From an uncultured Candidatus Saccharibacteria bacterium (GTDB taxonomy: Bacteria > Patescibacteriota > Minisyncoccia > Sungbacterales > SURF-37), in the NCBI GenBank assembly GCA_964363965.1, contig CAYIKH010000001.1, forward strand, positions 727-64,726: DNA of 64,000 nt. The letters are read 5' to 3'. The position numbers and the translations under genes were made by a program. This document shows, in pieces, positions 733 to 41,681 of the stretch. The notes under the pieces were generated by a model. It saw only the letters and a program-made list of their open reading frames with translations, did not search any database and was not told where the DNA came from. Numbering within the stretch: the stretch's first letter is position 1; the number at the start of each line of letters is the position of its first letter.

Positions 733-733
733 T

Positions 734-17543: not shown

Positions 17544-17557
17544 CATAATGCGCAAGT

Positions 17558-18622: not shown

Positions 18623-18629
18623 GCTTAAT

Positions 18630-23904: not shown

Positions 23905-23993
23905 GAGGTTGGGGTTGAAATTCCTTCGCGGTAGTCGAGGCCGAGACCTCGATGCCGGTGGAGAAGTATTCTTAAAAGAGGCACATCTGCTAT

Positions 23994-27501: not shown

Positions 27502-27511
27502 GAGTGATATT

Positions 27512-28327
27512 ATGTCCGATTGGGTTTCTAATTTTCCGTTGGTTCGGCATATCCGCGAGCTACGCGAAAAGACCGGTGGATCAGCCAGCATCGGCTGGAT
27601 GTACGATGAGCCGGCGTTTCTTTTATATGCTCTTGCCAAGTGGTATAAGCCCGAACTCGTGATTCAGACCGGGCATCTTTGGGGCAAGTCGGCCATGGTG
27701 GTGCTTGAGGCGCTCCATGACGGTTTTCTCATGTCTGCCGAAGGCATGATGGAGGAGGAGCAGGACGCGGATAAGAAGCTAGGCGCTTTCATCGCCGCAA
27801 ACCGCCCTTCGCCTCCGCAGCGGCCGAAAGTCATCAGCATTGATCCATTGCCAAAAGGCGTCCCGGATTCTGACGCCGGCATACGGTATCTTCGCGAGTA
27901 CGATCCGAATTTTGAGTTCTACCAGATGAAGAGCGACGAGTTTTTTCGAGCGCACGGTGGGCGGCTGGCCAAAGAATTCTCCGGCAGGCGCATCATGGGC
28001 ATTGTTGATGGCGATCACACTTGGGAAGGTTGTATGCAGGATCTCGAGTCATTGGCCAAGCTGGGAGCGCAATTCATCGTCGTTGATGACATGGCCTGGC
28101 TGCCGCACCTTAGGCGCGCCGCAGGAGAGTTTGGCCGCCGGAACGGCTACGAATTTTTCACTCTGCCTTTCTTCACCGGGATGGGCCTTCTTTGGCGGCG
28201 CGGTGAGATATCAATATCGCCGAAAGTTAGGAAGTTCCCGTATTCGCTGAAGGAATTTTTTTACGCCATCGGAGGTTTGGGACTCATCAATTTTGCGCGG
28301 CGGCTTAAGCATCTTATCGTTGGCTAG
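27512..28327 (+). CDS. Class I SAM-dependent methyltransferase, TylF/Methyltransf_24-like
   Basis: VIQTGHLWGKSAMVV and IVDGDHTWEGCMQDLE resemble macrocin-O-methyltransferase-type motifs. Confidence 0.5.
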   Translation: MSDWVSNFPLVRHIRELREKTGGSASIGWMYDEPAFLLYALAKWYKPELVIQTGHLWGKSAMVVLEALHDGFLMSAEGMMEEEQDADKKLGAFIAANRPSPPQRPKVISIDPLPKGVPDSDAGIRYLREYDPNFEFYQMKSDEFFRAHGGRLAKEFSGRRIMGIVDGDHTWEGCMQDLESLAKLGAQFIVVDDMAWLPHLRRAAGEFGRRNGYEFFTLPFFTGMGLLWRRGEISISPKVRKFPYSLKEFFYAIGGLGLINFARRLKHLIVG

Positions 28328-28328
28328 C

Positions 28329-29264
28329 ATGAAAAAGGTTCTTGTTGCTGGTGCAAGTGGTCTTATCGGCGGACATTTAGTGAAGCGGCTGCTCGCCGAT
28401 GGTCATCAGGTCCGCGCAGTTGGGCGCAGGTCGCTTCCGGAATGGCGGCAGTTGCATCCGGCGGCAGAAAACCTGCAGCTTGATTTACGCAAAAAAGAAA
28501 ACTGCTACCGCGCCGTTGAAGGGATGGATGAGGTGTATAATCTTGCCGCGGACATCGGTGGGGCGCGTTACATTGAGTCGAAAAAGGCTGAGCTTATGCT
28601 CTCCGTCCTCATCAATACCCATCTTCTCATGGCCGCTCGCGACCTCGGCGTCAAGCGCTACTTTTATTCTTCGGCCTATGCGGTTTCGGCCGCGGATCAC
28701 GAGCCGGCCGGCGTTCTTGGCGACGGCCACATCTGGGAAAAACTTTTTTCCGAGAAACTTTGCCAATATTTTCGCGAGGATTTTGGGATCCAGACCCGCG
28801 TGGCGCGGCTCCAGAATGTCTATGGTCCCTACGAAACGTACGGCGGGGACCGCGAGCGCGCGACTTCGGCCATGTGTCGCAAGGCTATCGAAGCCAGGCG
28901 TTCCGGCAATCATGAGTTTGAAATTTGGGGTGACGGAACTCAAGAGCGAAATTTTCTATATGTCGATGATGCGCTAGACGGTATTATAAAGCTTTTACCA
29001 AGCGACATCACCGAGCCGGTCGCGTTGGGGAGTTCGGAGTTCATCACCATTAACCAACTCGTGGATATTGTTGAAGGTATCGCCGGCATCAAGTTTGAAC
29101 GCCGCTATAATTTATCTGCTCCGGTAGGCACGCCTCGCCGCCCAGGCCCTCCGCCCGGCCATCCACGCCTTGATTGGCAGTCAAAAATATCGCTCCGCGA
29201 GGGCATGACGCGCCTCTATCGGTGGATGGAGCAGGATATGGAGCGAAAATTAGTAAAGGTATGA
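28329..29264 (+). CDS. NAD-dependent epimerase/dehydratase (extended SDR)
   Basis: VLVAGASGLIGGHLV; ...YSSAY... Confidence 0.7.
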   Translation: MKKVLVAGASGLIGGHLVKRLLADGHQVRAVGRRSLPEWRQLHPAAENLQLDLRKKENCYRAVEGMDEVYNLAADIGGARYIESKKAELMLSVLINTHLLMAARDLGVKRYFYSSAYAVSAADHEPAGVLGDGHIWEKLFSEKLCQYFREDFGIQTRVARLQNVYGPYETYGGDRERATSAMCRKAIEARRSGNHEFEIWGDGTQERNFLYVDDALDGIIKLLPSDITEPVALGSSEFITINQLVDIVEGIAGIKFERRYNLSAPVGTPRRPGPPPGHPRLDWQSKISLREGMTRLYRWMEQDMERKLVKV

Positions 29265-30292
29265 GGCTTGTCATCATCGGCACAACCATCAACGGTGAAA
29301 AGGGTTATTTGTCCTTGGATCGTCTTGCGGCCAAAAGCAAATTTCCCGATGTTACATTTGTCATTGCCGGAGACAAAAATTCTAAGCCTTTTGATACTTC
29401 CGGCTTCCAATGCCGGGTCGAGTATCTCGAGCCCAAAGATCAGGAGCGGTTCGAATCAAGCGTGCCTATCGGCTGGAAAACTCCGCGCCGCAGGCCAATT
29501 GCCTGGTTGCGGGCCATTGAGTTAAAGCCCGATGTTATTATCTCCGTTGATGATGACAATATCCCGCCCGATGATTACTTCGACACTTGGTATTCCGTTC
29601 TTACGAGTTCGGTCACTCAAACCGTCCTTCCGGTGCCAGGCGCCCGCGAGCCTGTTTGGCATAACTATCTCCGCTCCAGCGACGCGCCGATTGAGTTTTA
29701 TCCTCGCGGGTTTCCGATTCCTTTCCGCGGTCCTGCCAAGACCGTGATCGCGGCCGCCGCTAAGCCCATCCCGCAGCAGGAAATTGGTCTTTTCCAGGGA
29801 ATCTCCCTTGGCGATCCGGACATTGATTCTCTCACACGGATGGTTTATCCGAAGCGGATGCCGCTTAAAGCCATCAGCGAAAAGAACTACTGCCTCCGCG
29901 ATGTCTGGTCGCCGTATAATATGCAGAGCACCGCTTATCGGCCGATCCTATTTGGCCTGCCTATCCTCTGGCCGCATAATGGCCGCTTCGATGATATCTA
30001 CGCATCATTCGCGTTTCAAAAACTTCTTTTCAACAACCGGAAGTATGCATATGTGGGCGATCCCATCAATTTGCAGGATCGCGGGGTTCGTAATACTCTG
30101 AAACTCGATTTCCCGGAGGAAATCCACGGCCATCTTGGCTCGCACGAGGTCTGGTCGCGCCTCAATGAAATTGAGGAAACCGATTCGGCGCGTTTCCTCG
30201 AAAAGCTGATGGCCATTGATCACGAGCACATTCAACGTGATCTAGAGTTTTTCAAGGCGTTTCGCCAAGATATTTCAATGGTTCTGAAATAG
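29261..30292 (+). CDS. RGP/GT75-like protein (reversibly glycosylated polypeptide / UDP-arabinopyranose mutase-like)
   Basis: VIISVDDDNIPPDDYF, FYPRGFPIPFRG and GRFDDIYASFAFQ resemble the plant RGP/UAM DDDCF, FVRGYPFSLREG and GRYDDMWAGWC motifs. These are recalled from memory and were not searched. Confidence 0.4.
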   Translation: MRLVIIGTTINGEKGYLSLDRLAAKSKFPDVTFVIAGDKNSKPFDTSGFQCRVEYLEPKDQERFESSVPIGWKTPRRRPIAWLRAIELKPDVIISVDDDNIPPDDYFDTWYSVLTSSVTQTVLPVPGAREPVWHNYLRSSDAPIEFYPRGFPIPFRGPAKTVIAAAAKPIPQQEIGLFQGISLGDPDIDSLTRMVYPKRMPLKAISEKNYCLRDVWSPYNMQSTAYRPILFGLPILWPHNGRFDDIYASFAFQKLLFNNRKYAYVGDPINLQDRGVRNTLKLDFPEEIHGHLGSHEVWSRLNEIEETDSARFLEKLMAIDHEHIQRDLEFFKAFRQDISMVLK

Positions 30293-30293
30293 C

Positions 30294-31229
30294 ATGACAA
30301 AAGTTCTTGTTACCGGAGGAGCAGGATATCTCGGGTCAATTTTAACCGAGCATCTTTTGGATGCCGGATTTGACGTCATTGTCTTAGACAATCTGATGTA
30401 CGGGCAGGGGAATCTTGGTCATCTTGCTGCAAACCCACGCTTCGAATTTATTCGCGGCGATGGTCGGGACGAGCGTCTAATGAAAGAGCTTATCTCCAAA
30501 GCTGATGTCCTAATCCCGCTTGCGGCCATTGTCGGCGCTCCGGCCTGTGACCGCGATCCGTCGCTGGCCACGTCAGTGAACCTCGAGGCGATTCGGCTCG
30601 TAAATCGCCTCCGCAGCCCGAATCAGCTCGTTGTTTTTCCGAATACCAATAGCGGCTACGGAACGAAGTCCGGCGAGGTCTATTGCACCGAAGATACGTC
30701 ACTTGAGCCGATCACCCTTTATGGCCGGCTGAAAGTCGAGGCCGAAAAAGAGCTTTTGAGCTCGCTGAACACCGTCATACTTCGCCTGGCCACGGTCTTT
30801 GGCCTGTCCCCGCGAATGCGGCTTGATTTGCTGGTTAATGACTTTGTCTACAAGGCTGTCACCGACGGCTATCTCGTGATCTTTGAGAAGGATTTCAAGA
30901 GAAATTACATCCACATCCGCGACGTGGCCGACTGCTTCATCCACTCCATCAAGAACGCGCAAAAAATGGCTGGCCGGCCTTATAACGCCGGACTCGATGA
31001 CGCAAATCTTTCCAAAGAGGAACTTGCGCTCAAGGTCAAGGAATACGTTCCCAAGCTCTACATCCACTTTGCCGAGATCGGTAGCGATCCGGACAAGCGT
31101 AATTACATCGTTTCCAACGAGCGGCTGCGACAGGCCGGGTTTGAGGCCAAGCGCACGATTGACCAGGGCATTCAGGAGCTTATCAAAGGTTACAGAATGA
31201 TGGGCCGCCATCCGTTTAAGAATGTATGA
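30294..31229 (+). CDS. NAD-dependent epimerase/dehydratase (extended SDR)
   Basis: VLVTGGAGYLGSIL; YGRLK (Y-x3-K). Confidence 0.75.
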   Translation: MTKVLVTGGAGYLGSILTEHLLDAGFDVIVLDNLMYGQGNLGHLAANPRFEFIRGDGRDERLMKELISKADVLIPLAAIVGAPACDRDPSLATSVNLEAIRLVNRLRSPNQLVVFPNTNSGYGTKSGEVYCTEDTSLEPITLYGRLKVEAEKELLSSLNTVILRLATVFGLSPRMRLDLLVNDFVYKAVTDGYLVIFEKDFKRNYIHIRDVADCFIHSIKNAQKMAGRPYNAGLDDANLSKEELALKVKEYVPKLYIHFAEIGSDPDKRNYIVSNERLRQAGFEAKRTIDQGIQELIKGYRMMGRHPFKNV

Positions 31230-31948
31230 CCGAGCCGGCTCGACACGGCCTTTCCGGAATCACGGCGGCAATTCTTGCCGGCGGACTCGGAACTCGCCTG
31301 CGTTCGGTCCTTGCCGACAAGCCAAAGGTCTTGGCCGAAATCTACGGTCGACCGTTTCTTAGCTATCTTTTGGACCAGCTCAACGATGCGGGAGTGAGGC
31401 GGGTCGTTCTCCTGATTGGCTACCGCGGCGATGAGATACGAAACGTGTTCGGTGATTATTACAAGAATCTTAAGATTCGTTATTCCGAAGAGTCCTCACC
31501 CCTTGGCACTGGCGGCGCAGTGCGCTTGGCTTTGCCGATACTCGACTCTGATCCGGCGTTTATCATGAACGGCGATTCCTTCTGCGATGCGGATATCATG
31601 ACATTTTATGCTTGGCATTGCGCCAAAGACCGCTCCGGCTCTCTCCTGCTTGCTGAAGTTACTGATTCATCACGTTACGGCCGGGTGGCGCTCGATGCAG
31701 CTGGCGTCGTGCTGCGCTTTGAGGAAAAGGGCGGGCATGCCGGCCCCGGATTGATTAACGCCGGTGCTTATCTCCTCAGCCGCCGCGTGCTCGAATCCAT
31801 ACCCGAAGGGCGAGCGGTTTCGATTGAGCATGAGGTTTTTCCAAGTTGGATCGGACAAGGCCTTTACGGCTATCAAACGAGCGGCCGATTCATTGACATC
31901 GGCACGCCGGAGTCGTACGCCGAGGGCCTAAAATTCTTTGCAAGGTGA
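31226..31948 (+). CDS. hddC: Sugar-1-phosphate nucleotidyltransferase (HddC-like, D-glycero-D-manno-heptose-1-P guanylyltransferase candidate)
   Basis: AAILAGGLGTRLRSV..DKPK is the nucleotidyltransferase motif. The ~240-aa size fits, and it sits just before hddA/gmhB/gmhA. Confidence 0.6.
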   Translation: MTEPARHGLSGITAAILAGGLGTRLRSVLADKPKVLAEIYGRPFLSYLLDQLNDAGVRRVVLLIGYRGDEIRNVFGDYYKNLKIRYSEESSPLGTGGAVRLALPILDSDPAFIMNGDSFCDADIMTFYAWHCAKDRSGSLLLAEVTDSSRYGRVALDAAGVVLRFEEKGGHAGPGLINAGAYLLSRRVLESIPEGRAVSIEHEVFPSWIGQGLYGYQTSGRFIDIGTPESYAEGLKFFAR

Positions 31949-32046
31949 GAGGTCTTAGCTGGTGAGCGATTAGTCGGCCGATGACCGAAACCTATTCTTG
32001 TGAGGTATTTCTATCTGGATATGCATCGGCAACATTCGAACTCAAC

Positions 32047-33051
32047 ATGGTAATTTCCAAAACCCCGTGGCGAATATCGTTTTTCGGCGGCGGCACGGAT
32101 TTGCCGGCCTGGTACCGCGAGCACGGCGGAGCGGTTTTGAGCACCACCATTGATAAATACGGCTACATCACCTGTCGCTTCTTGCCGCCTTTTTTTGAGC
32201 ATAAAAACCTTGTTGTTTGGTCGCATATCGAGAAGACAAAAAGCGTGGATGAGATTCTTCATCCTTCGGTGCGCGAAACCCTGAAGTTCCTTAATTTTCA
32301 CGATGGCTTGGGCATACACTTTGACGGCGATCTTCCGGCGCGCACCGGTCTAGGCTCAAGCTCGTCTTTTACCGTTGGCCTTTTGAATGCTCTTTATGCC
32401 TTGCGTGGGCAGGAGACAACTAAAAAACAGCTTGCGCTTGATGCCATTCACATCGAGCAGAATCTCATTCGGGAAAACGTCGGCTCGCAGGATCAGGTGG
32501 CCGCCGCTTTCGGAGGGCTAAACCGCATCACCTTTGATAAAAGCGGGGAGATTGATGTTACTCCGATTCCAATCAAGCCCGAGCGGCTCGAAGAACTTCA
32601 AAATCATCTTATGCTTGTTTTCACCGGACTCTTGCGCAGTGCTTCGAGCGTCGAGGGCGAAAAAATCCAAAATATGTCCCAACGGGTTCGCGAATTTACT
32701 GCGATGCACGAGATGGTGGGTGAGGCGTTTGGTATCCTTACTGACGAGCGCGACCGACTTCATGATTTCGGCAAACTGCTTCACGAGATGTGGCAGCTTA
32801 AACGGACTTTGGCTTCATCTGTCGCCAATGACCACATTGACGGAATATACGAAGAGGCGCGGCAAACCGGCGCCATCGGTGGCAAGCTTTTGGGTGCTGG
32901 CGGAGGCGGATTCATGCTTTTATTCGCACCGCCTGAAGTTCAACCCAAAATCCGCGAGCGATTAAAGGGTTTGATGCAGGTTCCATTTCGTTTTGAATCC
33001 CAAGGCAGCCATATCATCCATCAAACCCCGCACTCGCCTTATCTGGTATAA
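32047..33051 (+). CDS. hddA: GHMP kinase, D-glycero-D-manno-heptose 7-phosphate kinase-like
   Basis: KTPWRISFFGGGTDLP, and the GHMP motif PARTGLGSSSSFTVG. Confidence 0.7.
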   Translation: MVISKTPWRISFFGGGTDLPAWYREHGGAVLSTTIDKYGYITCRFLPPFFEHKNLVVWSHIEKTKSVDEILHPSVRETLKFLNFHDGLGIHFDGDLPARTGLGSSSSFTVGLLNALYALRGQETTKKQLALDAIHIEQNLIRENVGSQDQVAAAFGGLNRITFDKSGEIDVTPIPIKPERLEELQNHLMLVFTGLLRSASSVEGEKIQNMSQRVREFTAMHEMVGEAFGILTDERDRLHDFGKLLHEMWQLKRTLASSVANDHIDGIYEEARQTGAIGGKLLGAGGGGFMLLFAPPEVQPKIRERLKGLMQVPFRFESQGSHIIHQTPHSPYLV

Positions 33052-33064
33052 GTTTAAGTAGACC

Positions 33065-33634
33065 ATGTCAAAACGCCGTTTTGTGATTTTGGACCGCGAC
33101 GGCACGATTATTGAAGGCGTGCAGCCTTATGTTTTGCATCCGGATCAGGTGGCACTTTTGCCGGGCGCGGCTCGGACGCTCCGAGAACTAAAATCTCAAG
33201 GTTTTGGGCTTATAGTAGTTACCAATCAGTCTGCAGTTGGCCGTGGCCTGATCGATTCCAGCCGCCTCGAGGAGATTCATCAGCGTTTCATCGGGCTCCT
33301 GGCTAGGGAAGGAGTTGAACTCGACGGTATTTATGTATGTACTCATCATCCCGATGACAAGTGTGTCTGTCGTAAGCCGCTACCCGGTCTCGTTGATCAG
33401 GCGGTGAGTGAGCACGGTTTTGACCTGAAGCAATCATTTCTGATCGGCGATGATGCCAAAGATATCGAACTTGGGCATGCAATCGGCGCCACGACATTTC
33501 TCGTTCGTACTGGACACGGCGAGTCTTTTTTAGCTGGGGGTCTTGGGATACAACCGCATCACGTCGTAGCCGACTTACCTTCGGCCGCAAGCGTGATTCA
33601 TACCTTAACCGTTGACCGGTCAAATGCGGCGTGA
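33065..33634 (+). CDS. gmhB: D,D-heptose 1,7-bisphosphate phosphatase (HAD family)
   Basis: FVILDRDGTI (DxDGT), VVTNQSAVGRG, and the CTHHPDDKCVCRKP Zn-binding loop typical of GmhB. Confidence 0.75.
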   Translation: MSKRRFVILDRDGTIIEGVQPYVLHPDQVALLPGAARTLRELKSQGFGLIVVTNQSAVGRGLIDSSRLEEIHQRFIGLLAREGVELDGIYVCTHHPDDKCVCRKPLPGLVDQAVSEHGFDLKQSFLIGDDAKDIELGHAIGATTFLVRTGHGESFLAGGLGIQPHHVVADLPSAASVIHTLTVDRSNAA

Positions 33635-34356
33635 AATCAATGGAAAAGAATAACGATTTTCTTCACAATATAGTGCGCTCGCATCTTGTCGAAAGCGCGC
33701 TCGTAAAACGGCGTCTCCTCGGAGCGACTGGCGGTTTTGATTATTCTAAGGTTCAAGTTGTTAGTGCCGGTCTTTCCATGCCGCAATACTCGAGTGATGT
33801 CGTGTCCGGGAGCGATGCGGTTGATGCGGTAGTGCAGGCAGTCTCGACCATTGCTGCCTCTTTTCGGAACGGCGGCAAGCTGATGCTCTGCGGAAATGGC
33901 GGGAGCGCTGCGGATTGCCAGCACATGGCTGCGGAGTTTACAAACATTCTTGAGCGCTCGTTCGACCGCGGGCCACTCCCCGCCATATCGCTCACTACCG
34001 ATACGTCGTTTCTCACTTCGTTCATAAACGATTCGCGGCTGTTCGCCCAGATTTTCTCGCGTCAGGTGGAGGCGCTCGGCCGGAAGGGGGACGTTCTCAT
34101 CGGCATCTCAACGAGCGGCGGCTCCGAGAACGTAATTCGCGCTGTCAGGAAGGCCCAAGAGATGGGCATGGCAACGATTGCCTTCACCGGAGAGGGCGGG
34201 CCGCTTGCTGAAGTCGCGGACATCGCGATTCGGGTGCCGAGCGCGCGGACAAGCCATATCCAGGAGGCGCATCTGGCTATTGAACATGCCATCTGTGATG
34301 CCGTGGAGCATCTTATGTTTCCGGAGAAAGGTTCGGCATTAAGGGAGGCAGTGTAA
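33631..34356 (+). CDS. gmhA: Phosphoheptose (sedoheptulose-7-phosphate) isomerase, SIS domain
   Basis: LCGNGGSAADCQHMAAEF and GISTSGGSENV. Confidence 0.75.
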   Translation: MKSMEKNNDFLHNIVRSHLVESALVKRRLLGATGGFDYSKVQVVSAGLSMPQYSSDVVSGSDAVDAVVQAVSTIAASFRNGGKLMLCGNGGSAADCQHMAAEFTNILERSFDRGPLPAISLTTDTSFLTSFINDSRLFAQIFSRQVEALGRKGDVLIGISTSGGSENVIRAVRKAQEMGMATIAFTGEGGPLAEVADIAIRVPSARTSHIQEAHLAIEHAICDAVEHLMFPEKGSALREAV

Positions 34357-34373
34357 ATTCAACCTGATTTTTC

Positions 34374-35231
34374 ATGAACATTACCGTTGTTGGCGGAAAG
34401 GGTTTTATCGGCAAGCCGCTTGTGGCCGAACTTAGCAAGCGTCATCGCGTCGAGACTTGGGATCTTCCGGAAGTTGATCTCCGCGATCCGGCCGCAATTG
34501 CCAAACGACTTGAAGAGAGGAGGCCAGATATGGTGGTCAATTTAGCTGCAGTGCTGGGAACGATGTATTCTAAAAACATCCAGGAGATTTTTGCGACAAA
34601 TGTTGTTGGGAATATAAATCTTGTAGAGGCCTGTCTCGCGCATGGGATAAAAAGATTCGTATTTGCAAGTTCCTTGACTGTGCACGGTCCGAACGAAATA
34701 GGAAAACATCATACGTCGCACTCACCCTTTAATCCTATCCAGGCCTATGCCGCCAGCAAAGCCGCTGCGGAATACAGTCTAATGCAATATTCGAAACATA
34801 ACGGTGTGACGACCGTGGTATTGCGGCCTGCAAGTGTACTGGGGGAGGGCACGCCAATGAATCATGCGCCTAGTGATTTTGTAAAAACACTACTTCGCGG
34901 CGATTCGATTGAGCTTTTTGGCGGAGGGGAACATGAAAGAGAGTGGCTATGGATTGATGATGTTGTATCTGGGTTTTGCAAGGCGGTAGATTTTTGCGCC
35001 AAAGCTCCAGCTGGCTACCACCCGTTTTTTATTTCCGCAAACCGCATCTCAATGAAGGATCTTGCCGAAAGATGCGTTAGCTTTATTGGTGGTTCAGTAA
35101 AAGTCGCTGCTGGTACTGCTCAAGCTTTTTCGTTGACATGCGATGCATCAGATACCCAAAAAATACTTGGTTGGAGAGTCGAGTATACTATAGACGATAT
35201 CATTCAAAACCTGATTAAAATTTTTAAATAG
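34374..35231 (+). CDS. NAD-dependent epimerase/dehydratase (extended SDR)
   Basis: ITVVGGKGFIGKPL; YAASKAAAE (Y-x3-K). Confidence 0.7.
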   Translation: MNITVVGGKGFIGKPLVAELSKRHRVETWDLPEVDLRDPAAIAKRLEERRPDMVVNLAAVLGTMYSKNIQEIFATNVVGNINLVEACLAHGIKRFVFASSLTVHGPNEIGKHHTSHSPFNPIQAYAASKAAAEYSLMQYSKHNGVTTVVLRPASVLGEGTPMNHAPSDFVKTLLRGDSIELFGGGEHEREWLWIDDVVSGFCKAVDFCAKAPAGYHPFFISANRISMKDLAERCVSFIGGSVKVAAGTAQAFSLTCDASDTQKILGWRVEYTIDDIIQNLIKIFK

Positions 35232-35247
35232 ATCGTGAGACCCTCTT

Positions 35248-35763
35248 ATGGTAAAAGTTTCTAAAACAAAACTCCCCGGCCTGCTCCTGATTCAGCTTGA
35301 CGCCTTTCGCGACCATCGCGGGGTGTATGTCGGGACCTATGACGAGGCGCGCTACCGCAAGCTCGGCATCCGGGTGAAGTTCGTGGAGGACGATTATTCG
35401 CGCTCGCGCCGGCGGGTGCTCCGCGGCATCCACGCCGATTCCAAATCGTGGAAACTCATTTCCTGCCCGCTTGGTAGAATTCTCGTTGTCATCGTCAATT
35501 GCAACCGCCGATCGCGGCGTTTCGGCCGATGGCAGGCCTTTGAACTTTCGGAGAAGAACTGCCGCCAGCTCCTCGTTCCCCCCAAGCACGGCGTAGTGCA
35601 TCTTGTCCTCTCTCGCCAGGCCATGTTCAGTTACAAGCAGTCCGAGTATTACGATCCCAAGCGCCAAGCCACGTATCGCTGGGACGATCCCGCCTTCAAG
35701 ATCCGCTGGCCGGTGCGAAACCCCATTCTCTCGAAGCGTGATCGGCTCGGTCACTACGTGTAG
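35248..35763 (+). CDS. NDP-4-keto-6-deoxy sugar 3,5-epimerase, RfbC-like cupin
   Basis: The dTDP-4-dehydrorhamnose 3,5-epimerase fold is recognisable from RGIHAD...KLISCPLGRILVV...YDP. In this context it may act on GDP-heptose intermediates. Confidence 0.7.
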   Translation: MVKVSKTKLPGLLLIQLDAFRDHRGVYVGTYDEARYRKLGIRVKFVEDDYSRSRRRVLRGIHADSKSWKLISCPLGRILVVIVNCNRRSRRFGRWQAFELSEKNCRQLLVPPKHGVVHLVLSRQAMFSYKQSEYYDPKRQATYRWDDPAFKIRWPVRNPILSKRDRLGHYV

Positions 35764-35784
35764 CTTGCGCGAGAGTGTATTTCC

Positions 35785-36909
35785 ATGAAAATCAAAAGAC
35801 TCCTCGTGGTCCCGTGCGACACGCTGGTACAAGGAAAGGAGGTTGCCAGGCGAACCTCCTTTTTTGGCGAGGCGGCCTCGTTCTTGGCTATCAAGCTTGG
35901 CCGGAGCGGCTTTAGCTATGACGGCGAGATACAGTTTTACGGCGATTTTCCGGCTCTGCTCGGCAAAGAACACGTGTTTGTCTACGGACGATTCCATCCC
36001 CATCTTTATGTGAAGCACGTTCCAAAAAACTGCCCTTACCCCTCCTGCCACGGCCTGCCGAAAGGGACGGCGATAGGATCAAAGGATCTTAGTGCGGTCA
36101 TGAGCCAGGTGGATGCGGTGTTTGTTTCCTTGCGCGGCGGCGAGAGGGCCCAGGAGGTGCTCGCCGAGGCTGGGCGGCGCGGCATTCCCAGAGCGCTCTT
36201 TGATTTTGAGGATTATCCGGAAATCTACGGCCGGGCGCTTGCCGCAAAAGAACTCACGGCTGGCTATGCGCACGGCAAGGACTTTGAGCTTTATTTCAAG
36301 AAAGAATTGCCGCTCGGCTTTCGCACGGATACCATCTTGCCGCTTGCGCCAAGTCCGGTGCGGCCCGAATCTTATCGCTTTCCGAACGCTAACAAGCGTC
36401 ATGCTATTTTTTATAGCGGCCGTTCGCGTCCGGGCTGTCAGGCGGATCGCGAGGAGGCTGTGGCGCTTCTCGGGAAGTTTCCCGGCGGCGAATTTATTGA
36501 CCACGATCGGCGGCGCCGGAGCTTTTTGACCACGCATGAATACTGGCGGCATCTTGCCGAAAGCCGCATGGCTCTTTCGCCGTCCGGCAAGTCCTGGGAT
36601 TCTTACCGGCACTGCGAGGTCGGGCTTGCTCCGCAAACTCTCCTCATTGCGCCCAAACCCTTCATCGAAACTGCTGGTCCGCAGCTTATAGATGGCCGAA
36701 ATGCAATTCTCTACGACACCGAGTTTCGCGACGGGAAATATCATCTTAAAGACGCCGGCGCGCTTGCCGATGCGGTCCGTTATTATCTCAGCCACGACGA
36801 CGAGAGGAAAAAAATTGCCGATGCGTGGCAGCGCGATGTCCTTTCGGGACATACGGTATTAGGCCGCTCGTGCTATATACTCGAGAGTATGGAGCGAGCC
36901 TTCTCATGA
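35785..36909 (+). CDS. Hypothetical protein, possible GT-B-like glycosyltransferase
   Basis: 374 aa. The C-terminal region (RMALSPSGKSWDSYRHCEVGLAPQTLLIAP) is reminiscent of GT-B donor-binding domains. No firm assignment. Confidence 0.3.
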   Translation: MKIKRLLVVPCDTLVQGKEVARRTSFFGEAASFLAIKLGRSGFSYDGEIQFYGDFPALLGKEHVFVYGRFHPHLYVKHVPKNCPYPSCHGLPKGTAIGSKDLSAVMSQVDAVFVSLRGGERAQEVLAEAGRRGIPRALFDFEDYPEIYGRALAAKELTAGYAHGKDFELYFKKELPLGFRTDTILPLAPSPVRPESYRFPNANKRHAIFYSGRSRPGCQADREEAVALLGKFPGGEFIDHDRRRRSFLTTHEYWRHLAESRMALSPSGKSWDSYRHCEVGLAPQTLLIAPKPFIETAGPQLIDGRNAILYDTEFRDGKYHLKDAGALADAVRYYLSHDDERKKIADAWQRDVLSGHTVLGRSCYILESMERAFS

Positions 36910-38243
36910 AAACTGTATTCATCACCTGCATCCGCGGCATTATATCGCGGAACATCCTTTCGACCGCGGCTTTTGAGTTACTGGCCTCGAGGAACGATTT
37001 GCGTCTGGTTATCATTGTGCCGGAAAGCCGGACTGTGGCCATGAAAAAAGAGTTCGGCGGAGAAAATGTGTTTATCGAGGGCGTCCCCAACCCGCCGCCG
37101 AAAGGCCTTGGCCGGTTTCTTTGGGTCCTGGCTACCAATCTCCTAGCCACCCGCACCCGCGAAGTCCAGCGTCGAGCCAAGTTCGAGTATGATAAAAACC
37201 TCTTTGATTACCTGGCCTCGCGGCTGGTGGGCTTCATCGGCCGCTTCCGCGCGCTGCGACGGCTTTTCCGCCTTCTTTACGGCCTGTTTGATTCCGGCTC
37301 GGAGTTTGACAACTTGTTCAAGCGCTATCAGCCTTCGCTCCTTTTTGGCACCGATGTTTACGAGCTTGCCGATGTCCGGATTATGAGGGCCGCAAGGCGA
37401 TTGGGCGTAACAACCATAGGCATGGTGAGATCGTGGGATAACCCGACATCCAAAACCATTTTGAATTTTATTCCCGATCATGTTGTGGTTAATGCCGAGC
37501 GCATCCGCGCCGAGGCCATTGAATACGGCGATGTTCCGGCCAATCGCATATCCATCTCTGGTGTGCCGCATTATGATTGCTATCTAGACACATCTTTAAG
37601 AACGCCGCGCGATGAATTCTGCCGCCGAGTAGGTCTTGATCCAGCTAAGCCCTTTATGCTTTTTACACCGCCGGCGGACACTTATTTACAGCATGATCCG
37701 GTTGCTCCAGTTGTATTGAAGGCGCTTGAAACCAGCCGCATACAGGTATTGGTGAGAATGCCGCTTGTTGGCAAGACGGAACTCGCCGGTATGATTCCGC
37801 CGCCCAATGCTGTTTTTGATATGCCGTCAAACTCTCCGGATTTCGTTGATGTGCATCTTGACCGCGCGGCTGATCGGCACCTTGCCGATTCAATCTATCA
37901 CAGCGCCCTGGTCATCACCTGGGCTTCAACCATGGTTATTGACGCTGCGGCTTTTGACAAACCCATAATCCTTGTCGGTTTTGATGCTTCGCCCCGACCC
38001 TACGGCCGGAGCATCCAGCAATACTACGATTATGACCACCAGCGGGCCATAATTGAGAGTCGGGGAGTTAGGTTTGCGAGAACCCCGGAGGAGTTAAGTC
38101 GTATGGCTAAACTTTATCTGGACGATTCCACTCTTGATAAGATCGGACGCGAAAAAATCCGCCAGGATTACTGCGGAGATCTTGATGGTCATGACGGAGA
38201 GCGGCTGGGAAAGTTCTTATTGGAGAGGCTTGACGCTTTGTAG
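36906..38243 (+). CDS. TagF-like CDP-polyol phosphotransferase family protein, paralogue 3
   Basis: LVITWASTMVIDAAAFDKPIILVGFDASPRPY...YYDYDHQRAIIESRGVRFARTPEEL. ATGA overlap with the upstream gene. Confidence 0.55.
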   Translation: MKTVFITCIRGIISRNILSTAAFELLASRNDLRLVIIVPESRTVAMKKEFGGENVFIEGVPNPPPKGLGRFLWVLATNLLATRTREVQRRAKFEYDKNLFDYLASRLVGFIGRFRALRRLFRLLYGLFDSGSEFDNLFKRYQPSLLFGTDVYELADVRIMRAARRLGVTTIGMVRSWDNPTSKTILNFIPDHVVVNAERIRAEAIEYGDVPANRISISGVPHYDCYLDTSLRTPRDEFCRRVGLDPAKPFMLFTPPADTYLQHDPVAPVVLKALETSRIQVLVRMPLVGKTELAGMIPPPNAVFDMPSNSPDFVDVHLDRAADRHLADSIYHSALVITWASTMVIDAAAFDKPIILVGFDASPRPYGRSIQQYYDYDHQRAIIESRGVRFARTPEELSRMAKLYLDDSTLDKIGREKIRQDYCGDLDGHDGERLGKFLLERLDAL

Positions 38244-39566: not shown

Positions 39567-40533
39567 CGAACCGAAAGGTTACTCGAAAACGGCAATAGCC
39601 GTTTTGAACAAGCTCGGCCGGGTGTATCCCTGGTCGGAGGCAAGGAAAAAGCCGGCCATTCTCAAAAGAGCCGGCATCTTGGTGGTCAAACTCGGTATTA
39701 AAATATCAAAACCGCTTCTGGATAAACTTCCGAATTTGAAAATAATCGGCACTTCGACCACCGGACTCAACCACATTGATATAGAAGAAGCCAGACAGCG
39801 GGAGATTCAGGTTATCTCACTTCGTGGAGAGATGCGATTTTTAAAAACCATATTTCCCACAGCCGAGGAGACGATCGGGCTCATAATCATGCTTATTCGC
39901 AAGTTGCCTTGGGGGTTTGACGCGGTTAGGGCCGGCAAGTGGCAAAAGGAGAAGTTTTACGGCCATGAGCTTTTTGGCAAGACATTGGGCATCATCGGCT
40001 TCGGCCGCTTGGGTTCAATGGTTGCAGGTTTTGGCCGGGCTTTGGGCATGAGCGTGATTGCCTGCGACCCTTATGTTTCTGCGGCCGTGATGCGGCGGGC
40101 GGGAGTGAAAAAAGTTTCCATGGATGCTGTTTTCAAACGCGCTGATGTTGTCTCTATCCACGTTCTCCTCACGGGCAAAACCCATAACCTCATCAAACGC
40201 CGCCACTTCCGCCTGATGAAGCCGACGGCTTATTACATTAACACCGCCCGCGGTGAGATAAATAACGAGAAGGCTCTACTCGAGGCCTTGGAGAAAAAAT
40301 GGATTGCCGGTGCCGCTCTCGATGTTCTCGCCAATGAAGATCCGAAGGGGCGCCATGTAAAACGCCATCCGCTTGTGCGCTACGCCAAACGCCATAGGAA
40401 TCTGATTATCGTCCCGCACCTCGGCGGCGCCACATTCGAATCCATGGCGCGTACCGAGGAATTTATCGCCGAGAAGATCGCTCACTTCGTCCAGAAACGC
40501 CGCTCTCCTCTGAGTCGGTATAAAGGGATGTAA
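39547..40533 (+). CDS. D-isomer-specific 2-hydroxyacid dehydrogenase family (glycerate/phosphoglycerate DH-like)
   Basis: GKTLGIIGFGRLGSMVA; the start was chosen at MRAIIL. Confidence 0.75.
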   Translation: MRAIILTEPKGYSKTAIAVLNKLGRVYPWSEARKKPAILKRAGILVVKLGIKISKPLLDKLPNLKIIGTSTTGLNHIDIEEARQREIQVISLRGEMRFLKTIFPTAEETIGLIIMLIRKLPWGFDAVRAGKWQKEKFYGHELFGKTLGIIGFGRLGSMVAGFGRALGMSVIACDPYVSAAVMRRAGVKKVSMDAVFKRADVVSIHVLLTGKTHNLIKRRHFRLMKPTAYYINTARGEINNEKALLEALEKKWIAGAALDVLANEDPKGRHVKRHPLVRYAKRHRNLIIVPHLGGATFESMARTEEFIAEKIAHFVQKRRSPLSRYKGM

Positions 40534-41678: not shown

Positions 41679-41681
41679 ATT

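What the first reader, a model, noticed from the sequence alone, without database searches (positions are those of the whole stretch)
31226..36909. GDP-heptose module coupled to epimerase/dehydratase/RfbC-like enzymes: modified (possibly 6-deoxy) heptose
gmhA, hddA-like kinase, gmhB and an HddC-like nucleotidyltransferase form the GDP-D-glycero-alpha-D-manno-heptose route known from S-layer glycan and capsule systems. They are flanked by three extended-SDR epimerase/dehydratases (28329, 30294, 34374) and an RfbC-like 3,5-epimerase (35248). This mirrors the Campylobacter/Yersinia enzymes that turn GDP-heptose into 6-deoxy and epimerised heptoses. The locus therefore likely installs a modified heptose alongside the methyl-branched deoxyhexoses.
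Basis: partly seen in the sequence, partly recalled or inferred. Interest (0 to 1): 0.55.

Follow-up and report, generated by a model that had tools for sequence, protein, structure and literature searches.

The report
Heptose-tailoring operon with furanose mutase
An uncultured ultra-small groundwater bacterium carries an operon that builds the seven-carbon sugar GDP-heptose and remodels it with Campylobacter-type enzymes plus a previously unannotated ring-contracting mutase, so the sugar it installs is probably an epimerised heptose in furanose form, not a 6-deoxy-heptose.

Summary
The genes are real. An HddC-like guanylyltransferase, a GHMP heptose kinase, GmhB and GmhA (31226-34356), three SDRs, an RmlC-like cupin and a glycosyltransferase are packed on the + strand (27437-38243) of a Patescibacteria groundwater contig.

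- **SDR at 30294:** a gapless, 52.6%-identical homologue of Cj1427, the C. jejuni GDP-heptose C4-dehydrogenase. That enzyme leads to 6-hydroxy, not 6-deoxy, heptoses. The module has no GMD/DdahA-type 4,6-dehydratase.
- **Cupin:** it clusters with heptose-linked cupins, not with RmlB/RmlD-linked RmlC.
it has no Pfam hit and only 133 homologues. It is a remote GT75 relative of MtdL, the GDP-L-galactopyranose/furanose mutase (model pLDDT 95, TM 0.80, profile E 3e-29). The nucleophile Arg and base Asp are kept.
- **Upstream partner (28329):** a GDP-mannose 3,5-epimerase (GME) derivative that lost Cys145, Tyr174 and Lys217 and gained an NADP-type pocket. This variant occurs only in heptose-linked loci (12/12). 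Canonical GME occurs only in heptose-free loci (0/10).

Best reading: a "split GME" acts on GDP-heptose, and ring contraction then gives a GDP-heptofuranose. Nothing is biochemically tested.

The parts
27437..28327 (+). Possible sugar O-methyltransferase. It ends 1 nt before SDR1.
   Evidence: Weak Pfam hits only: Methyltransf_24 at 1.8e-3 and RMNT_CmcI at 0.018. Spacing. Membership in the module is inferred from position alone.
28329..29264 (+). SDR1: a GDP-mannose 3,5-epimerase (GME)-derived SDR with a remodelled active site. Proposed NADPH-dependent C4 reductase of the epimerised 4-keto-heptose.
   Evidence: Best PDB hit is GME 2c59, E 4e-56, 194 bits; GDP-fucose synthase scores only 91 bits. 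Changed GME residues: D58->G, C145->A, Y174->H, K217->R, with the loop cut from 29 to 16 aa. K178, N203, R243 and R306 are kept. The variant is found only in heptose-linked loci, 12/12. A GmhA-SDR1 fusion exists, P0156.
29261..30292 (+). UNK343: remote GT75 (MtdL/RGP-like) NDP-sugar pyranose/furanose mutase homologue. Proposed GDP-heptopyranose mutase.
   Evidence: No Pfam or NCBIfam hit even at E<=1. Only 133 homologues in 5.8e9 proteins, all 'hypothetical'. AF2 model pLDDT 95.1, pTM 0.93. Foldseek top hits are MtdL 7xpr/7xps, E 6e-21, TM 0.79-0.80, followed by rice UAM2 at TM 0.68. Family profile against MtdL gives E 2.9e-29. DDDN, R149 (=R159 nucleophile), D187, Q222, R242 and D245 (=D260 base) are conserved. 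The Mn ligand H287 is replaced by an invariant Gln272.
30294..31229 (+). [quoted passage not shown]
   Evidence: PDB 6vo6/6vo8 (Cj1427) E 7.6e-109, 366.8 bits; 308 aa aligned without gaps at 52.6% identity; TNSGYG and YGxxK motifs shared. Entry titles confirm the Cj1427 identity. In at least 568 species the family is followed by HddC/HddA.
31226..31948 (+). HddC-like heptose-1-phosphate guanylyltransferase. Overlaps SDR2 by 4 nt.
   Evidence: NCBIfam man1P_GTase 2.2e-51 and HddC 2.7e-44, both below cut-off. PDB Yersinia HddC 5xhw 148 bits; GDP-Man pyrophosphorylases 119-124 bits; dTDP, UDP and CDP enzymes at most 74 bits.
31981..33051 (+). [quoted passage not shown]
   Evidence: Pfam GHMP_kinases_N and _C. 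NCBIfam HddA 6.3e-40. PDB 3k85, WcbL 4usk and 4n3o at 111-123 bits.
33065..33634 (+). GmhB heptose-1,7-bisphosphate 7-phosphatase (HAD-IIIA).
   Evidence: NCBIfam PRK08942 1.7e-46, 158 bits against a cut-off of 178.
33640..34356 (+). GmhA sedoheptulose-7-phosphate isomerase (SIS domain). It has an N-terminal extension of about 45 aa, or the true start lies downstream.
   Evidence: NCBIfam PRK13936 1e-55 and TIGR00441 3.5e-52. Start as called in ENA.
34374..35231 (+). SDR3: small (285 aa) extended SDR with a canonical S...YxxxK triad. Either a second C4 reductase or a post-mutase tailoring enzyme; role unresolved.
   Evidence: Only generic PDB and NCBIfam hits, at most 85 bits. It carries ASSLTVHG and YAASK with no dehydratase acid residue. 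Narrow family: 20 representatives at E<=1e-30 out of 1.84e9. Directly adjacent to UNK343 homologues in 13 of 25 loci.
35248..35763 (+). RmlC-like cupin: proposed GDP-4-keto-heptose C3/C5 epimerase.
   Evidence: Pfam dTDP_sugar_isom 4.5e-46. TIGR01221 gives 135 bits, below the 155.75 cut-off. Top PDB hits are C. jejuni DdahB/MlghB/Cj1430 at 110-113 bits against RmlC at 109, which does not discriminate. H67, K74, Y134, D173, R28 and R64 equivalents are kept; N121->V and Y132->F. It clusters at 46-62% identity with 11 heptose-linked cupins. RmlB/RmlD-linked ones are 32-36% identical.
35785..36909 (+). GT374: Glyco_trans_1_2 glycosyltransferase, candidate transferase for the mutase product.
   Evidence: Pfam 8.1e-9. 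Homologues at 43-49% identity lie next to UNK343 homologues in L090, L091, L115 and L120. A same-family GT lies in L110.
36906..38243 (+). UNK445: weakly TagF-like (CDP-glycerol glycerophosphotransferase family) protein. Last gene of the + strand run.
   Evidence: Pfam Glyphos_transf E 0.004, below cut-off. Overlaps GT374 by 4 nt. Membership is by position only.

Best explanation

Proposed steps:
1. GmhA, the HddA-like kinase, GmhB and the HddC-like guanylyltransferase make GDP-heptose from sedoheptulose-7-P. This rests on family-level homology.
2. The Cj1427 homologue (SDR2) oxidises C4 to GDP-D-glycero-4-keto-D-lyxo-heptose. This rests on strong homology to a characterised enzyme.
3. The RmlC-like cupin epimerises C3 and/or C5. 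This is inferred from homology, retained catalytic residues and its heptose-linked clade.
4. SDR1 is a GME descendant that has lost the oxidation and epimerisation residues and acquired an NADP-type pocket. It reduces C4, most simply to the L-galacto configuration that GME produces. This is inferred.
5. UNK343, a GT75/MtdL-like metal-dependent mutase, converts the heptopyranose nucleotide to the furanose. This is inferred from fold, conserved catalytic Arg/Asp and gene pairing.
6. GT374 transfers the sugar. This is inferred from co-occurrence.

In effect the single-enzyme GME reaction has been split over three proteins to work on a heptose. The role of SDR3 is unresolved: it may be an alternative C4 reductase or a tailoring enzyme acting after the mutase.
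For: - **GDP-heptose genes:**
- **SDR2 = Cj1427 homologue:** E 7.6e-109, 52.6% identity, gapless, catalytic region identical. In C. jejuni this enzyme initiates the 6-hydroxy-heptose routes (PMC10680097, PMC7949155).
- **No GMD-type dehydratase:**
- **Cupin:** 4 of 6 active-site residues and both phosphate-binding Arg are kept. It lies in a clade of 12 heptose-linked sequences, separate from RmlB/RmlD-linked RmlC.
- **UNK343:** pLDDT 95 model, MtdL TM 0.80 at E 6e-21, profile E 2.9e-29. The nucleophile Arg159, base Asp260, Arg257, Gln229, Asp195 and DDDN equivalents are invariant in the family (residue roles from PMC9937993).
- **Precedent for the pairing:** GME plus a GT75 mutase are paired in A201A biosynthesis (PMC6678494, PMC9937993).
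- **Association of the two GME kinds:** next to UNK343 homologues the GME-like gene is of two kinds. The canonical kind occurs in 10 loci, none with heptose genes. The His-variant occurs in 11 loci plus the window, all with heptose genes.
- **Fusion:** a GmhA-SDR1 fusion protein exists.
- **Shared contigs:** 28 exact contig-length coincidences link the SDR1 and UNK343 homologue lists. Direct adjacency was seen in L085, L086, L093, L096, L100, L102, L123 and L124.
- **Spacing:** SDR1/UNK343 and SDR2/HddC overlap by 4 nt, and UNK343/SDR2 are 1 nt apart.
- **Precedent for a missing catalytic Tyr:** the C. jejuni heptose C4 reductase MlghC has Phe in that position (PMC7949155).
Against: - There are no biochemical data for any protein of this locus or of the UNK343, SDR1-variant or SDR3 families.
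- The known GT75 bacterial substrates are hexoses (GDP-L-Gal, GDP-L-Fuc); none is a heptose.
- The Mn2+ ligand His287 of MtdL is an invariant Gln here, and Ser228 is Met.
- SDR1 has His where SDRs have the catalytic Tyr, so its competence as a reductase is unproven. The NADP preference is inferred only from the Asp->Gly-Arg change.
- Two SDRs (SDR1, SDR3) compete for the reductase role.
- Related loci do not all carry the full set. L091 has the mutase and heptose genes without SDR1 or the cupin. L086 has no Cj1427 homologue within 10 kb and has a CTP_transf-like nucleotidyltransferase.
- In the cupin, Asn121->Val and Tyr132->Phe.
- All four GDP-heptose enzymes score below the NCBIfam equivalog cut-offs.
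- RmlB and RmlD elsewhere in the window have no RmlC of their own.
- The loci in the 12/12 versus 0/10 contrast are phylogenetically related, not independent.
Confidence: 0.55

Rival explanations
1. The SDRs include a DdahA/WcbK/DmhA-type 4,6-dehydratase, and the locus makes a 6-deoxy-heptose as in C. jejuni 81-176, Yersinia or Burkholderia.
For: All three SDRs hit the broad Pfam GDP_Man_Dehyd model. Cupin epimerases work in both the 6-deoxy and 6-hydroxy routes of C. jejuni (PMC10680097).
Against: The NCBIfam gmd model gives at most 38 bits (cut-off 415) for SDR3 and nothing for SDR1 or SDR2. SDR2 is a Cj1427 homologue with the same TNSGYG segment and no Asp/Glu. SDR3 has SSLTVHG. SDR1 lacks even the catalytic Tyr. 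The window's real dehydratases are RmlB (386.7 bits, above the 365 cut-off) and a CDP-glucose type.
Confidence: 0.05
2. There are two independent pathways. SDR2 + cupin + SDR3 make an epimerised GDP-heptopyranose, exactly as Cj1427/Cj1430/Cj1428 do. Separately, SDR1 + UNK343 act on GDP-mannose to give GDP-L-galactofuranose.
For: MtdL and Hyg20 act on hexoses (PMC9937993). Canonical GME + UNK343-homologue pairs without heptose genes exist in 10 loci. SDR3 has an intact catalytic triad and lies next to the cupin.
Against: SDR1 lacks Cys145, Tyr174 and Lys217, which GME needs for oxidation and for both epimerisations (PMC8787198), so it cannot make GDP-L-Gal from GDP-Man by the known mechanism. 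The variant is found only with heptose genes (12/12) and once fused to GmhA. SDR3 homologues sit next to the mutase even in heptose-free loci. The window has no dedicated GDP-mannose genes.
Confidence: 0.15
3. The RmlC-like cupin, perhaps together with SDR3, serves the dTDP-6-deoxyhexose pathway encoded 16 kb upstream (RmlB 17558-18622, RmlD ~18636-19484, C-methyltransferase 16263-17543). That pathway has no epimerase of its own.
For: RmlB and RmlD pass the NCBIfam equivalog cut-offs, and no other RmlC-like gene is in the window. PDB scores for dTDP RmlC (109 bits) nearly equal those for the GDP-heptose epimerases (113 bits).
Against: The cupin is below the rmlC cut-off, 135 against 155.75. 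It is 46-62% identical to cupins that follow Cj1427-like/HddC/HddA genes or precede GmhB/GmhA in loci without RmlB/RmlD. It is only 32-36% identical to cupins adjacent to RmlB/RmlD. It sits 16-21 nt from its heptose-module neighbours. CPR genomes commonly encode a separate dTDP-rhamnose pathway (PMC9166423).
Confidence: 0.08
4. UNK343 is not a mutase. It is a GT-A glycosyltransferase or a self-glycosylating RGP-like protein that uses the modified GDP-heptose as donor.
For: GT75 proteins also autoglycosylate an Arg, and some (AtRGP5) are mutase-inactive (PMC9937993). The Mn ligand His287 is replaced by Gln. There is no Pfam RGP hit.
Against: The residues whose mutation abolishes MtdL mutase activity are invariant or nearly invariant in the family: R159, R257, D109 and Q229, with D260 and D195 also kept (PMC9937993). 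AtRGP5 inactivity is attributed to loss of His287 and Arg257, whereas here Arg257 is kept. The next-best structural matches, true glycosyltransferases, have TM below 0.5. The recurrent pairing with GME-type enzymes mirrors the A201A mutase logic.
Confidence: 0.1

Closest known systems
C. jejuni NCTC 11168 (HS:2) Mlgh pathway: Cj1427/MlghA C4-dehydrogenase, Cj1430/MlghB C3/C5-epimerase, Cj1428/MlghC C4-reductase, fed by GmhA/HddA/GmhB/HddC (PMC10680097, PMC7949155)
   Same: The same four GDP-heptose synthesis enzyme families are present. There is a 52.6%-identical Cj1427 homologue and an RmlC-fold epimerase with the His/Lys/Tyr/Asp site. C4 reduction follows oxidation and epimerisation, and the 6-OH is retained.
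   Different: No Cj1428/GFS-type reductase was found among PDB hits at E<=1e-10. The candidate reductases are a GME-derived His-variant SDR and a small SDR of a rare family. An extra GT75-like mutase gene is embedded in the module. The host is Patescibacteria, not a Gram-negative pathogen.
A201A / hygromycin A sugar pathways: GDP-mannose 3,5-epimerase + GT75 mutase MtdL (or Hyg20), giving GDP-L-galactofuranose / GDP-L-fucofuranose (PMC9937993, PMC6678494)
   Same: A GME-family gene is paired with a GT75-fold, flavin-independent mutase. The catalytic Arg nucleophile, Asp base and DDDN motif are conserved. N-terminal motifs resembling the GDP-binding ones are kept (T-x-I and D-x-N; motif level only).
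   Different: Only 22-23% identity, and not recognised by Pfam. The Mn ligand His is replaced by Gln. The partner GME has lost its catalytic Cys, Tyr and Lys, and separate dehydrogenase and cupin epimerase genes are present. The inferred substrate is a heptose. The context is a cell-surface glycan locus, not an antibiotic cluster.
C. jejuni HS:10 / HS:41 heptofuranose formation (6-deoxy-L-galacto- and 6-deoxy-D-altro-heptofuranose) by FADH2-dependent Glf-type mutases (PMC10680097, PMC12369002)
   Same: A GDP-heptopyranose is converted to a heptofuranose after C4 reduction. An L-galacto-configured heptofuranose is a known natural sugar in its 6-deoxy form.
   Different: The mutase class differs: flavoenzyme versus metal-dependent GT75 fold. 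The C. jejuni substrates are 6-deoxy, whereas here the 6-OH is predicted to be kept. The C. jejuni heptose mutases themselves are still uncharacterised.
GDP-mannose 3,5-epimerase (plant GME; Methylacidiphilum GM35E) (PMC8787198)
   Same: SDR1 aligns over its full length (194 bits). It keeps K178, N203 and the diphosphate/sugar-binding Arg243 and Arg306.
   Different: D58->G (NAD to NADP-type pocket), C145->A, Y174->H, K217->R, and 8-13 residues are deleted from the loop between them. It therefore cannot be filed as a GME.
[quoted passage not shown] Named from my own knowledge; the PDB matches are 4usk and 5xhw.
   Same: The same GHMP-kinase / guanylyltransferase (alpha-anomer, GDP) logic is used, rather than the ADP/beta route of LPS cores.
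   Different: Sequence scores are below the equivalog cut-offs. Downstream tailoring is more elaborate.

Membership tests
[quoted passage not shown] | SIS-domain sedoheptulose-7-P isomerase | tested here: met
   NCBIfam PRK13936 1e-55 and TIGR00441 3.5e-52. Both are below the equivalog cut-offs (188.5/276 and 176.6/209).
[quoted passage not shown] | GHMP-family (not PfkB/HldE-type) heptose-7-P kinase, which defines the alpha route | tested here: met
   Pfam GHMP_kinases_N/C. Best PDB hits are the heptose kinases 3k85, WcbL 4usk and 4n3o. The NCBIfam HddA score of 137.6 is far below the cut-off of 600.
[quoted passage not shown] | Guanylyl- (not adenylyl-, thymidylyl- or cytidylyl-) transferase | tested here: inconclusive
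   All top hits are guanylyltransferases, and the neighbours are enzymes specific for GDP-sugars. Scores are below the cut-offs (151/300), and nucleotide preference cannot be read from sequence with these tools.
Cj1427-type GDP-heptose C4-dehydrogenase | Full-length homology to Cj1427, with a shared catalytic segment and no dehydratase acid/base pair | tested here: met
   E 7.6e-109; 308 aa gapless at 52.6% identity; PNTNSGYG and YGxxK shared.
Cj1427-type GDP-heptose C4-dehydrogenase | Tightly bound NADH recycled by alpha-ketoglutarate (ping-pong mechanism) | not testable with these tools
   Property known for Cj1427 from PMC10680097. It needs an enzyme assay.
GDP-heptose 4,6-dehydratase (DdahA/WcbK/DmhA; GMD family), required for 6-deoxy-heptoses | A GMD-like SDR with a Thr/Ser-x-Glu catalytic motif in or next to the module | tested here: not met
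   The gmd model gives at most 38 bits against a cut-off of 415. There is no acidic residue in TNSGYG (SDR2), SSLTVHG (SDR3) or SSAYAV (SDR1). The other window dehydratases are dTDP/CDP type.
GDP-4-keto-heptose C3/C5 epimerases (Cj1430/MlghB/DdahB; RmlC cupins) | RmlC fold with the His67/Asp173 dyad, Lys74 and Tyr134 | tested here: met
   Pfam 4.5e-46. His, Lys, Tyr134, Asp173, Arg28 and Arg64 equivalents are present; Asn121->Val and Tyr132->Phe.
GDP-4-keto-heptose C3/C5 epimerases (Cj1430/MlghB/DdahB; RmlC cupins) | Specific relationship to heptose enzymes rather than dTDP RmlC | tested here: inconclusive
   PDB scores of 113 against 109 bits do not discriminate. Context-based clustering favours heptose: 46-62% identity to heptose-linked cupins against 32-36% to RmlB/RmlD-linked ones. 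Whether it acts at C3, C5 or both cannot be told.
GDP-mannose 3,5-epimerase (GME) | Catalytic triad S143/Y174/K178 plus acid/base pair C145/K217 (PMC8787198) | tested here: not met
   SDR1 has A/A/H/K/R at S143/C145/Y174/K178/K217, plus G at D58. The same holds in 11 related loci. Canonical GMEs in the same alignment keep all of these residues.
GT75 NDP-pyranose mutases (MtdL, Hyg20, plant UAM/RGP) | GT-A-like GT75 fold | tested here: met
   The model (pLDDT 95.1) matches MtdL at TM 0.79-0.80, E 6e-21, and rice UAM2 at TM 0.68. Other GT-A enzymes fall below 0.5.
GT75 NDP-pyranose mutases (MtdL, Hyg20, plant UAM/RGP) | Conserved Arg nucleophile (R159), Asp base (D260), R257, Q229, D195 and the DxD motif | tested here: met
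   R149, D245, R242, Q222, D187 and D97-D98-D99-N100 are invariant or nearly invariant in 39 family members and align to the MtdL residues (PMC9937993).
GT75 NDP-pyranose mutases (MtdL, Hyg20, plant UAM/RGP) | Mn2+ ligand His287 and recognition by the family's sequence model | tested here: not met
   His287 aligns to an invariant Gln272. There is no Pfam hit at E<=1. Homology is seen only by profile (E 2.9e-29) and by fold.
GT75 NDP-pyranose mutases (MtdL, Hyg20, plant UAM/RGP) | Pyranose/furanose interconversion activity and substrate identity | not testable with these tools
   Needs an enzyme assay with GDP-heptoses and GDP-L-Gal/Fuc.
C. jejuni heptose C4 reductases (Cj1428/MlghC, DdahC; GDP-fucose-synthase family) | Close homology to GFS-type reductases | tested here: not met
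   SDR1 scores 72-91 bits with GDP-fucose synthases against 194 with GME. SDR3 has no specific match. No heptose reductase chain appeared at E<=1e-10.

The most novel reading that the evidence does not exclude
Patescibacteria possess a previously undescribed, flavin-independent route to a GDP-heptofuranose. [quoted passage not shown] A Pfam-less GT75 relative, with Gln in place of the Mn-binding His, then contracts the ring. This would give a first function to two uncharacterised protein families and define a first specific surface-sugar pathway in the candidate phyla radiation.
Probability: 0.4. Interest if true: 0.7.

Novelty: new variant of a known kind. Interest (0 to 1): 0.6.

Why it matters
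- **Known scope of heptose tailoring.** It has been worked out almost only in Campylobacter, Yersinia and Burkholderia. This locus shows the Cj1427 route in an uncultured ultra-small bacterium. The Cj1427-like/HddC/HddA cassette is also present in at least 568 species across many phyla.
- **Two families without a function.** The locus links the heptose pathway to two of them. One is a GT75-like mutase family with 133 known members, all annotated 'hypothetical'. The other is a GME lineage with a rewired active site.
- **What it would mean if the model holds.** It adds a second, flavin-independent way to make heptofuranoses. It gives a natural example of an enzyme's multistep reaction being split among specialised proteins. 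It supplies new biocatalysts for rare L-sugars and furanoses.
- **Relevance to CPR biology.** CPR cells depend on attachment to hosts, so their surface glycans are biologically important and essentially unknown.

Tried and rejected
1. **PDB best hits to decide whether the cupin is a GDP-heptose or dTDP enzyme.** The scores are too close (113 against 109 bits). I replaced this with clustering of cupins by genomic context.
2. **Pfam and NCBIfam on the 343-aa ORF.** Nothing was found even at E<=1. It was solved by structure prediction plus a profile search.
3. **A hidden second RmlC.** ORF 19566-20120, downstream of RmlD, shows no similarity.
4. **GMD/DdahA-type dehydratase anywhere in the window.** None was found.
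5. **Promoter/terminator scan of 26000-40000.** Counts are at or below shuffled expectation, so they are uninformative. The operon is inferred from spacing only.
6. **AF2 model of SDR2 from a shallow alignment.** pLDDT was 57.8, which is unusable as a structure. I used it only to retrieve the PDB entry titles confirming that 6vo6/6vo8 are Cj1427.
7. **Primary papers on Cj1427, Cj1428/1430 and the A201A mutase** (PMC7509852, PMC7500870, PMC8240034, PMC5441726). They are not held. I relied on PMC10680097, PMC7949155, PMC9937993, PMC6678494 and PMC8787198.
8. **tRNA scan.** No tRNAs were found.
9. **Assigning the terminal C4-reductase role to SDR1 or SDR3 from co-occurrence.** This was not resolvable. 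SDR1 tracks heptose genes, while SDR3 tracks the mutase.
10. **N-terminal GDP-binding residues of MtdL (T13, I15, D40, N42).** The HMM alignment starts at residue 62, so only motif-level resemblance can be claimed (T8-x-I10, D38-x-N40).

Full report
**Source and setting.** The window matches a 78.8-kb contig from a 0.1-um filter fraction of Hainich groundwater, well H43 (ENA ERZ1292629). NCBI files the same proteins under a 'Patescibacteria group bacterium' MAG. The closest relatives of two module proteins are in Sungbacteria and Jorgensenbacteria MAGs. The finding lies inside a glycan island of roughly 45 kb, mostly on the + strand. That island also encodes two NeuB/CMP-transferase sets, two sugar C-methyltransferases, a CDP-glucose branch, RmlB/RmlD, TagF-like transferases, a Wzy_C-TPR protein and an initiating transferase.

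**Observation.**
- HddC-like nucleotidyltransferase: 31226-31948.
- GHMP kinase: 31981-33051.
- GmhB: 33065-33634.
- GmhA: 33640-34356.
- SDRs: 28329-29264, 30294-31229 and 34374-35231.
- RmlC-like cupin: 35248-35763.
- Glyco_trans_1_2 transferase: 35785-36909.

Gene spacing from 27437 to 38243 is -4 to +32 nt. The next gene is on the opposite strand. A promoter/terminator scan adds nothing. The nucleotidyltransferase matches guanylyltransferases best: Yersinia HddC 5xhw at 148 bits and GDP-mannose pyrophosphorylases at 119-124 bits, while dTDP, UDP and CDP enzymes score at most 74 bits. The kinase matches the solved heptose kinases 3k85, WcbL 4usk and 4n3o. All four enzymes fall below NCBIfam's equivalog cut-offs. 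The assignment is therefore family-level, and GDP specificity is inferred.

**The SDR at 30294 is a Cj1427 homologue.** It matches PDB 6vo6/6vo8 at E 7.6e-109. The alignment covers 308 residues without a gap at 52.6% identity and includes identical PNTNSGYG and YGxxK segments. [quoted passage not shown] The 6-deoxy-heptoses instead need a separate C4,6-dehydratase (PMC10680097, PMC7949155).

No such dehydratase is present here. The gmd model gives at most 38 bits against a cut-off of 415. None of the three SDRs has the acidic residue of dehydratases. The window's true dehydratases are an RmlB above cut-off and a CDP-glucose type.

**The Cj1427-like family is very widespread.**
- At least 568 GTDB species representatives carry it, at 68-76% identity across Cyanobacteria, Acidobacteriota, Chloroflexota, Planctomycetota, Desulfobacterota and others.
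- In the 80 loci fetched it is followed by HddC in 64 and HddA in 55, often with GmhB and GmhA.

**The cupin.** PDB scores cannot tell GDP-heptose epimerases (DdahB/MlghB/Cj1430, 110-113 bits) from dTDP RmlC (109 bits). The score on the rmlC model is below cut-off, 135 against 155.75. Aligned to DdahB/MlghB it keeps His67, Lys74, Tyr134, Asp173, Arg28 and Arg64, but has Val for Asn121 and Phe for Tyr132.

Genomic context does discriminate. The cupin clusters at 46-62% identity with 11 cupins that lie downstream of Cj1427-like/HddC/HddA genes or next to GmhB/GmhA, in loci without RmlB/RmlD. Cupins adjacent to RmlB/RmlD in the same set of loci are only 32-36% identical. This argues against the rival that the cupin serves the RmlB/RmlD genes 16 kb upstream, which lack an epimerase of their own.

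**The overlooked ORF (29261-30292).** It has no Pfam or NCBIfam hit even at E<=1. It has only 133 homologues among 5.8 billion clusters, all called hypothetical.
- An AlphaFold model built from 39 homologues is very confident: pLDDT 95.1, pTM 0.93.
- Its best structural matches are the six MtdL entries (E 6e-21 to 4e-20, TM 0.78-0.80, 21-23% identity).
- Rice UDP-arabinopyranose mutase UAM2 follows at TM 0.68. Ordinary GT-A transferases fall below TM 0.5.
- A profile of the family finds MtdL by sequence at E 2.9e-29.

MtdL is a GT75, metal-dependent, flavin-independent mutase that interconverts GDP-L-galactopyranose/furanose and GDP-L-fucopyranose/furanose (PMC9937993). The residues that paper identifies are invariant or nearly invariant in the new family: the nucleophile Arg159 (here R149), the base Asp260 (D245), Arg257 (R242), Gln229 (Q222), Asp195 (D187), Arg90 (R78) and the DDDN motif (D97-N100). 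Differences are His287, the Mn ligand, replaced by an invariant Gln272; His292 replaced by Arg277; and Ser228 replaced by Met (Thr in most members). N-terminal motifs T8-x-I10 and D38-x-N40 resemble the guanine-binding T13-x-I15 and D40-x-N42, but this is motif-level only.

**The SDR at 28329 (SDR1).** Its best solved relative is GDP-mannose 3,5-epimerase (2c59, E 4e-56, 194 bits). GDP-fucose synthases score only 72-91 bits. It nevertheless lacks the residues that define GME catalysis (PMC8787198):
- Cys145 -> Ala
- Tyr174 -> His
- Lys217 -> Arg
- Ser143 -> Ala/Ser/Thr

It also has 8-13 residues deleted between these positions. The NAD-ribose Asp58 is replaced by Gly followed by Arg or Lys, the usual signature of an NADP(H) pocket. 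Lys178, Asn203, Arg243 and Arg306 are kept. That the pocket binds NADP(H) is my inference from general Rossmann-fold rules.

**The decisive comparison.** I fetched 78 metagenomic loci encoding relatives of the mutase-like protein, plus seven from exact-protein look-ups. The GME-like gene near the mutase gene is of two kinds.
- In 10 loci it is canonical, with D58, S143, C145, Y174, K217 and a 29-residue loop. None of these loci has a heptose gene.
- In 11 loci plus the window it is the His-variant. All 12 have at least one of GmhA, GmhB, HddA, HddC or a Cj1427 homologue.
- In one contig the variant is fused to GmhA (P0156).
- Direct adjacency was seen in eight further loci.

GME plus a GT75 mutase is the known pairing for GDP-L-galactofuranose in A201A biosynthesis (PMC6678494, PMC9937993). 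The simplest reading is as follows. In heptose loci, oxidation and epimerisation have been handed to a Cj1427-type dehydrogenase and a cupin. The GME descendant keeps only the final, now NADPH-dependent, C4 reduction. The mutase then contracts the ring. A heptose C4 reductase without the SDR Tyr has precedent, since MlghC has Phe there (PMC7949155).

**SDR3 (34374-35231).** It has an intact Ser...YxxxK site and no dehydratase motif. It has only generic database matches. Its family is small: 20 representatives at E<=1e-30 among 1.84 billion. Its homologues lie directly next to the mutase gene in 13 of 25 well-covered loci, including heptose-free ones. It could be an alternative C4 reductase or a tailoring enzyme acting on the furanose nucleotide, and I could not decide between these. 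GT374 homologues also recur beside the mutase gene, which makes GT374 a candidate transferase for the product.

**Limits.**
- Nothing here is biochemically tested.
- The known GT75 substrates are hexoses.
- The His-for-Tyr and Gln-for-His substitutions may change or abolish the assumed chemistries.
- Related loci do not all carry the full gene set. L091 lacks SDR1 and the cupin. L086 lacks a nearby Cj1427 homologue and has a CTP_transf-like nucleotidyltransferase.
- The loci in the 12/12 versus 0/10 contrast are evolutionarily related.
- The stereochemistry of the final sugar cannot be derived from sequence. L-galacto is proposed only by analogy with the GME product and the MtdL substrates.

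**Comparison with what is known, and novelty.** The module works like the C. jejuni Mlgh pathway for steps 1-3 and like the A201A GME/MtdL pair for the last steps. It is a member of neither in full: GME membership fails on the catalytic residues, and GT75 membership holds by fold and catalytic Arg/Asp but fails on the metal ligand and on Pfam recognition. C. jejuni heptofuranoses are attributed to FADH2-type mutases (PMC10680097, PMC12369002). I found no paper in the held library linking GT75-type mutases to heptoses or describing heptose tailoring in Patescibacteria. [quoted passage not shown] I rate this a new variant of a known kind, with interest 0.6.

Noticed in passing
L005-L084 (80 genome loci); family of window 30294-31229: A Cj1427-like/HddC/(GmhB)/HddA cassette occurs in at least 568 species across many phyla, with the dehydrogenase 68-76% identical throughout. 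Its usual partners are a GDP-fucose-synthase-like SDR (45/80 loci), a DegT aminotransferase (33/80), TPP E1 alpha/beta or split transketolase pairs, a B12-radical-SAM protein and C-methyltransferases. This suggests a widespread, uncharacterised amino- or branched-heptose pathway outside Campylobacter.
   Followed up: partly
window 30294-31948 versus L085, L091, L093, L102, L123, L124: The window's Cj1427-like and HddC genes are closer to the non-CPR cassette (about 75% and 42-59% identity) than to their counterparts in other Patescibacteria loci (50-56% and 32-41%). SDR1, UNK343, SDR3 and the cupin are CPR-type. The module looks mosaic, possibly through horizontal transfer.
   Followed up: partly
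window 21758-24725 and 40542-43636: There are two separate NeuB-type synthase plus CMP-sugar transferase sets, the second with a NeuC-type UDP-GlcNAc 2-epimerase scoring above cut-off. This points to two nonulosonic-acid pathways in one CPR glycan island.
   Followed up: no
window 4579-7690 and 16263-19484: A CDP-glucose branch (cytidylyltransferase, 4,6-dehydratase-like, C-methyltransferase) sits alongside a dTDP branch (C-methyltransferase, RmlB and RmlD above equivalog cut-offs). The dTDP branch has no RmlA or RmlC of its own in the window.
   Followed up: partly
L110, L109, L115, L131, L104, L138, L143, L151, L152, L164: Canonical GME genes lie near UNK343-family mutase genes in heptose-free loci. 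Some are CPR loci with Wzm/Wzt transporters, TPP E1 pairs and an SDR3-like gene. These are probably GDP-L-galactofuranose-type pathways in environmental bacteria, outside antibiotic clusters.
   Followed up: partly
L086 12012-12512: In a Jorgensenbacteria locus a CTP_transf_like (RfaE-domain-II/TagD-type) nucleotidyltransferase lies directly after the UNK343 homologue, and NUDIX and inositol-monophosphatase-like genes recur there and in L085. Some CPR relatives may activate the sugar with a different nucleotide.
   Followed up: no
window 27437-28327: A weakly CmcI/rhamnosyl-O-methyltransferase-like ORF ends 1 nt before SDR1. The heptose may also be O-methylated, as in C. jejuni HS:2.
   Followed up: no
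window 45923-48253; 8788-10749; 11303-13210: A Wzy_C (O-antigen-ligase/O-oligosaccharyltransferase-like) protein is fused to TPR repeats. Two large T-rich ORFs without Pfam domains (one weakly DUF2298-like) are probably polytopic membrane proteins of the glycan machinery.
   Followed up: no
window 1-2000: GC content is 0.38 here against 0.51-0.59 in the rest of the window. The region holds a phosphonate-binding ABC substrate-binding protein gene (734-1642, minus strand). The compositional break is unexplained.
   Followed up: no
window 48347-49324: This UDP-glucose/GDP-mannose dehydrogenase-family ORF has only 325 aa. It aligns from model position ~73 and lacks the C-terminal domain. Full-length homologues (416-425 aa) sit in the related CPR heptose loci L085 and L086, so it may be truncated or have a mis-set start.
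   Followed up: no
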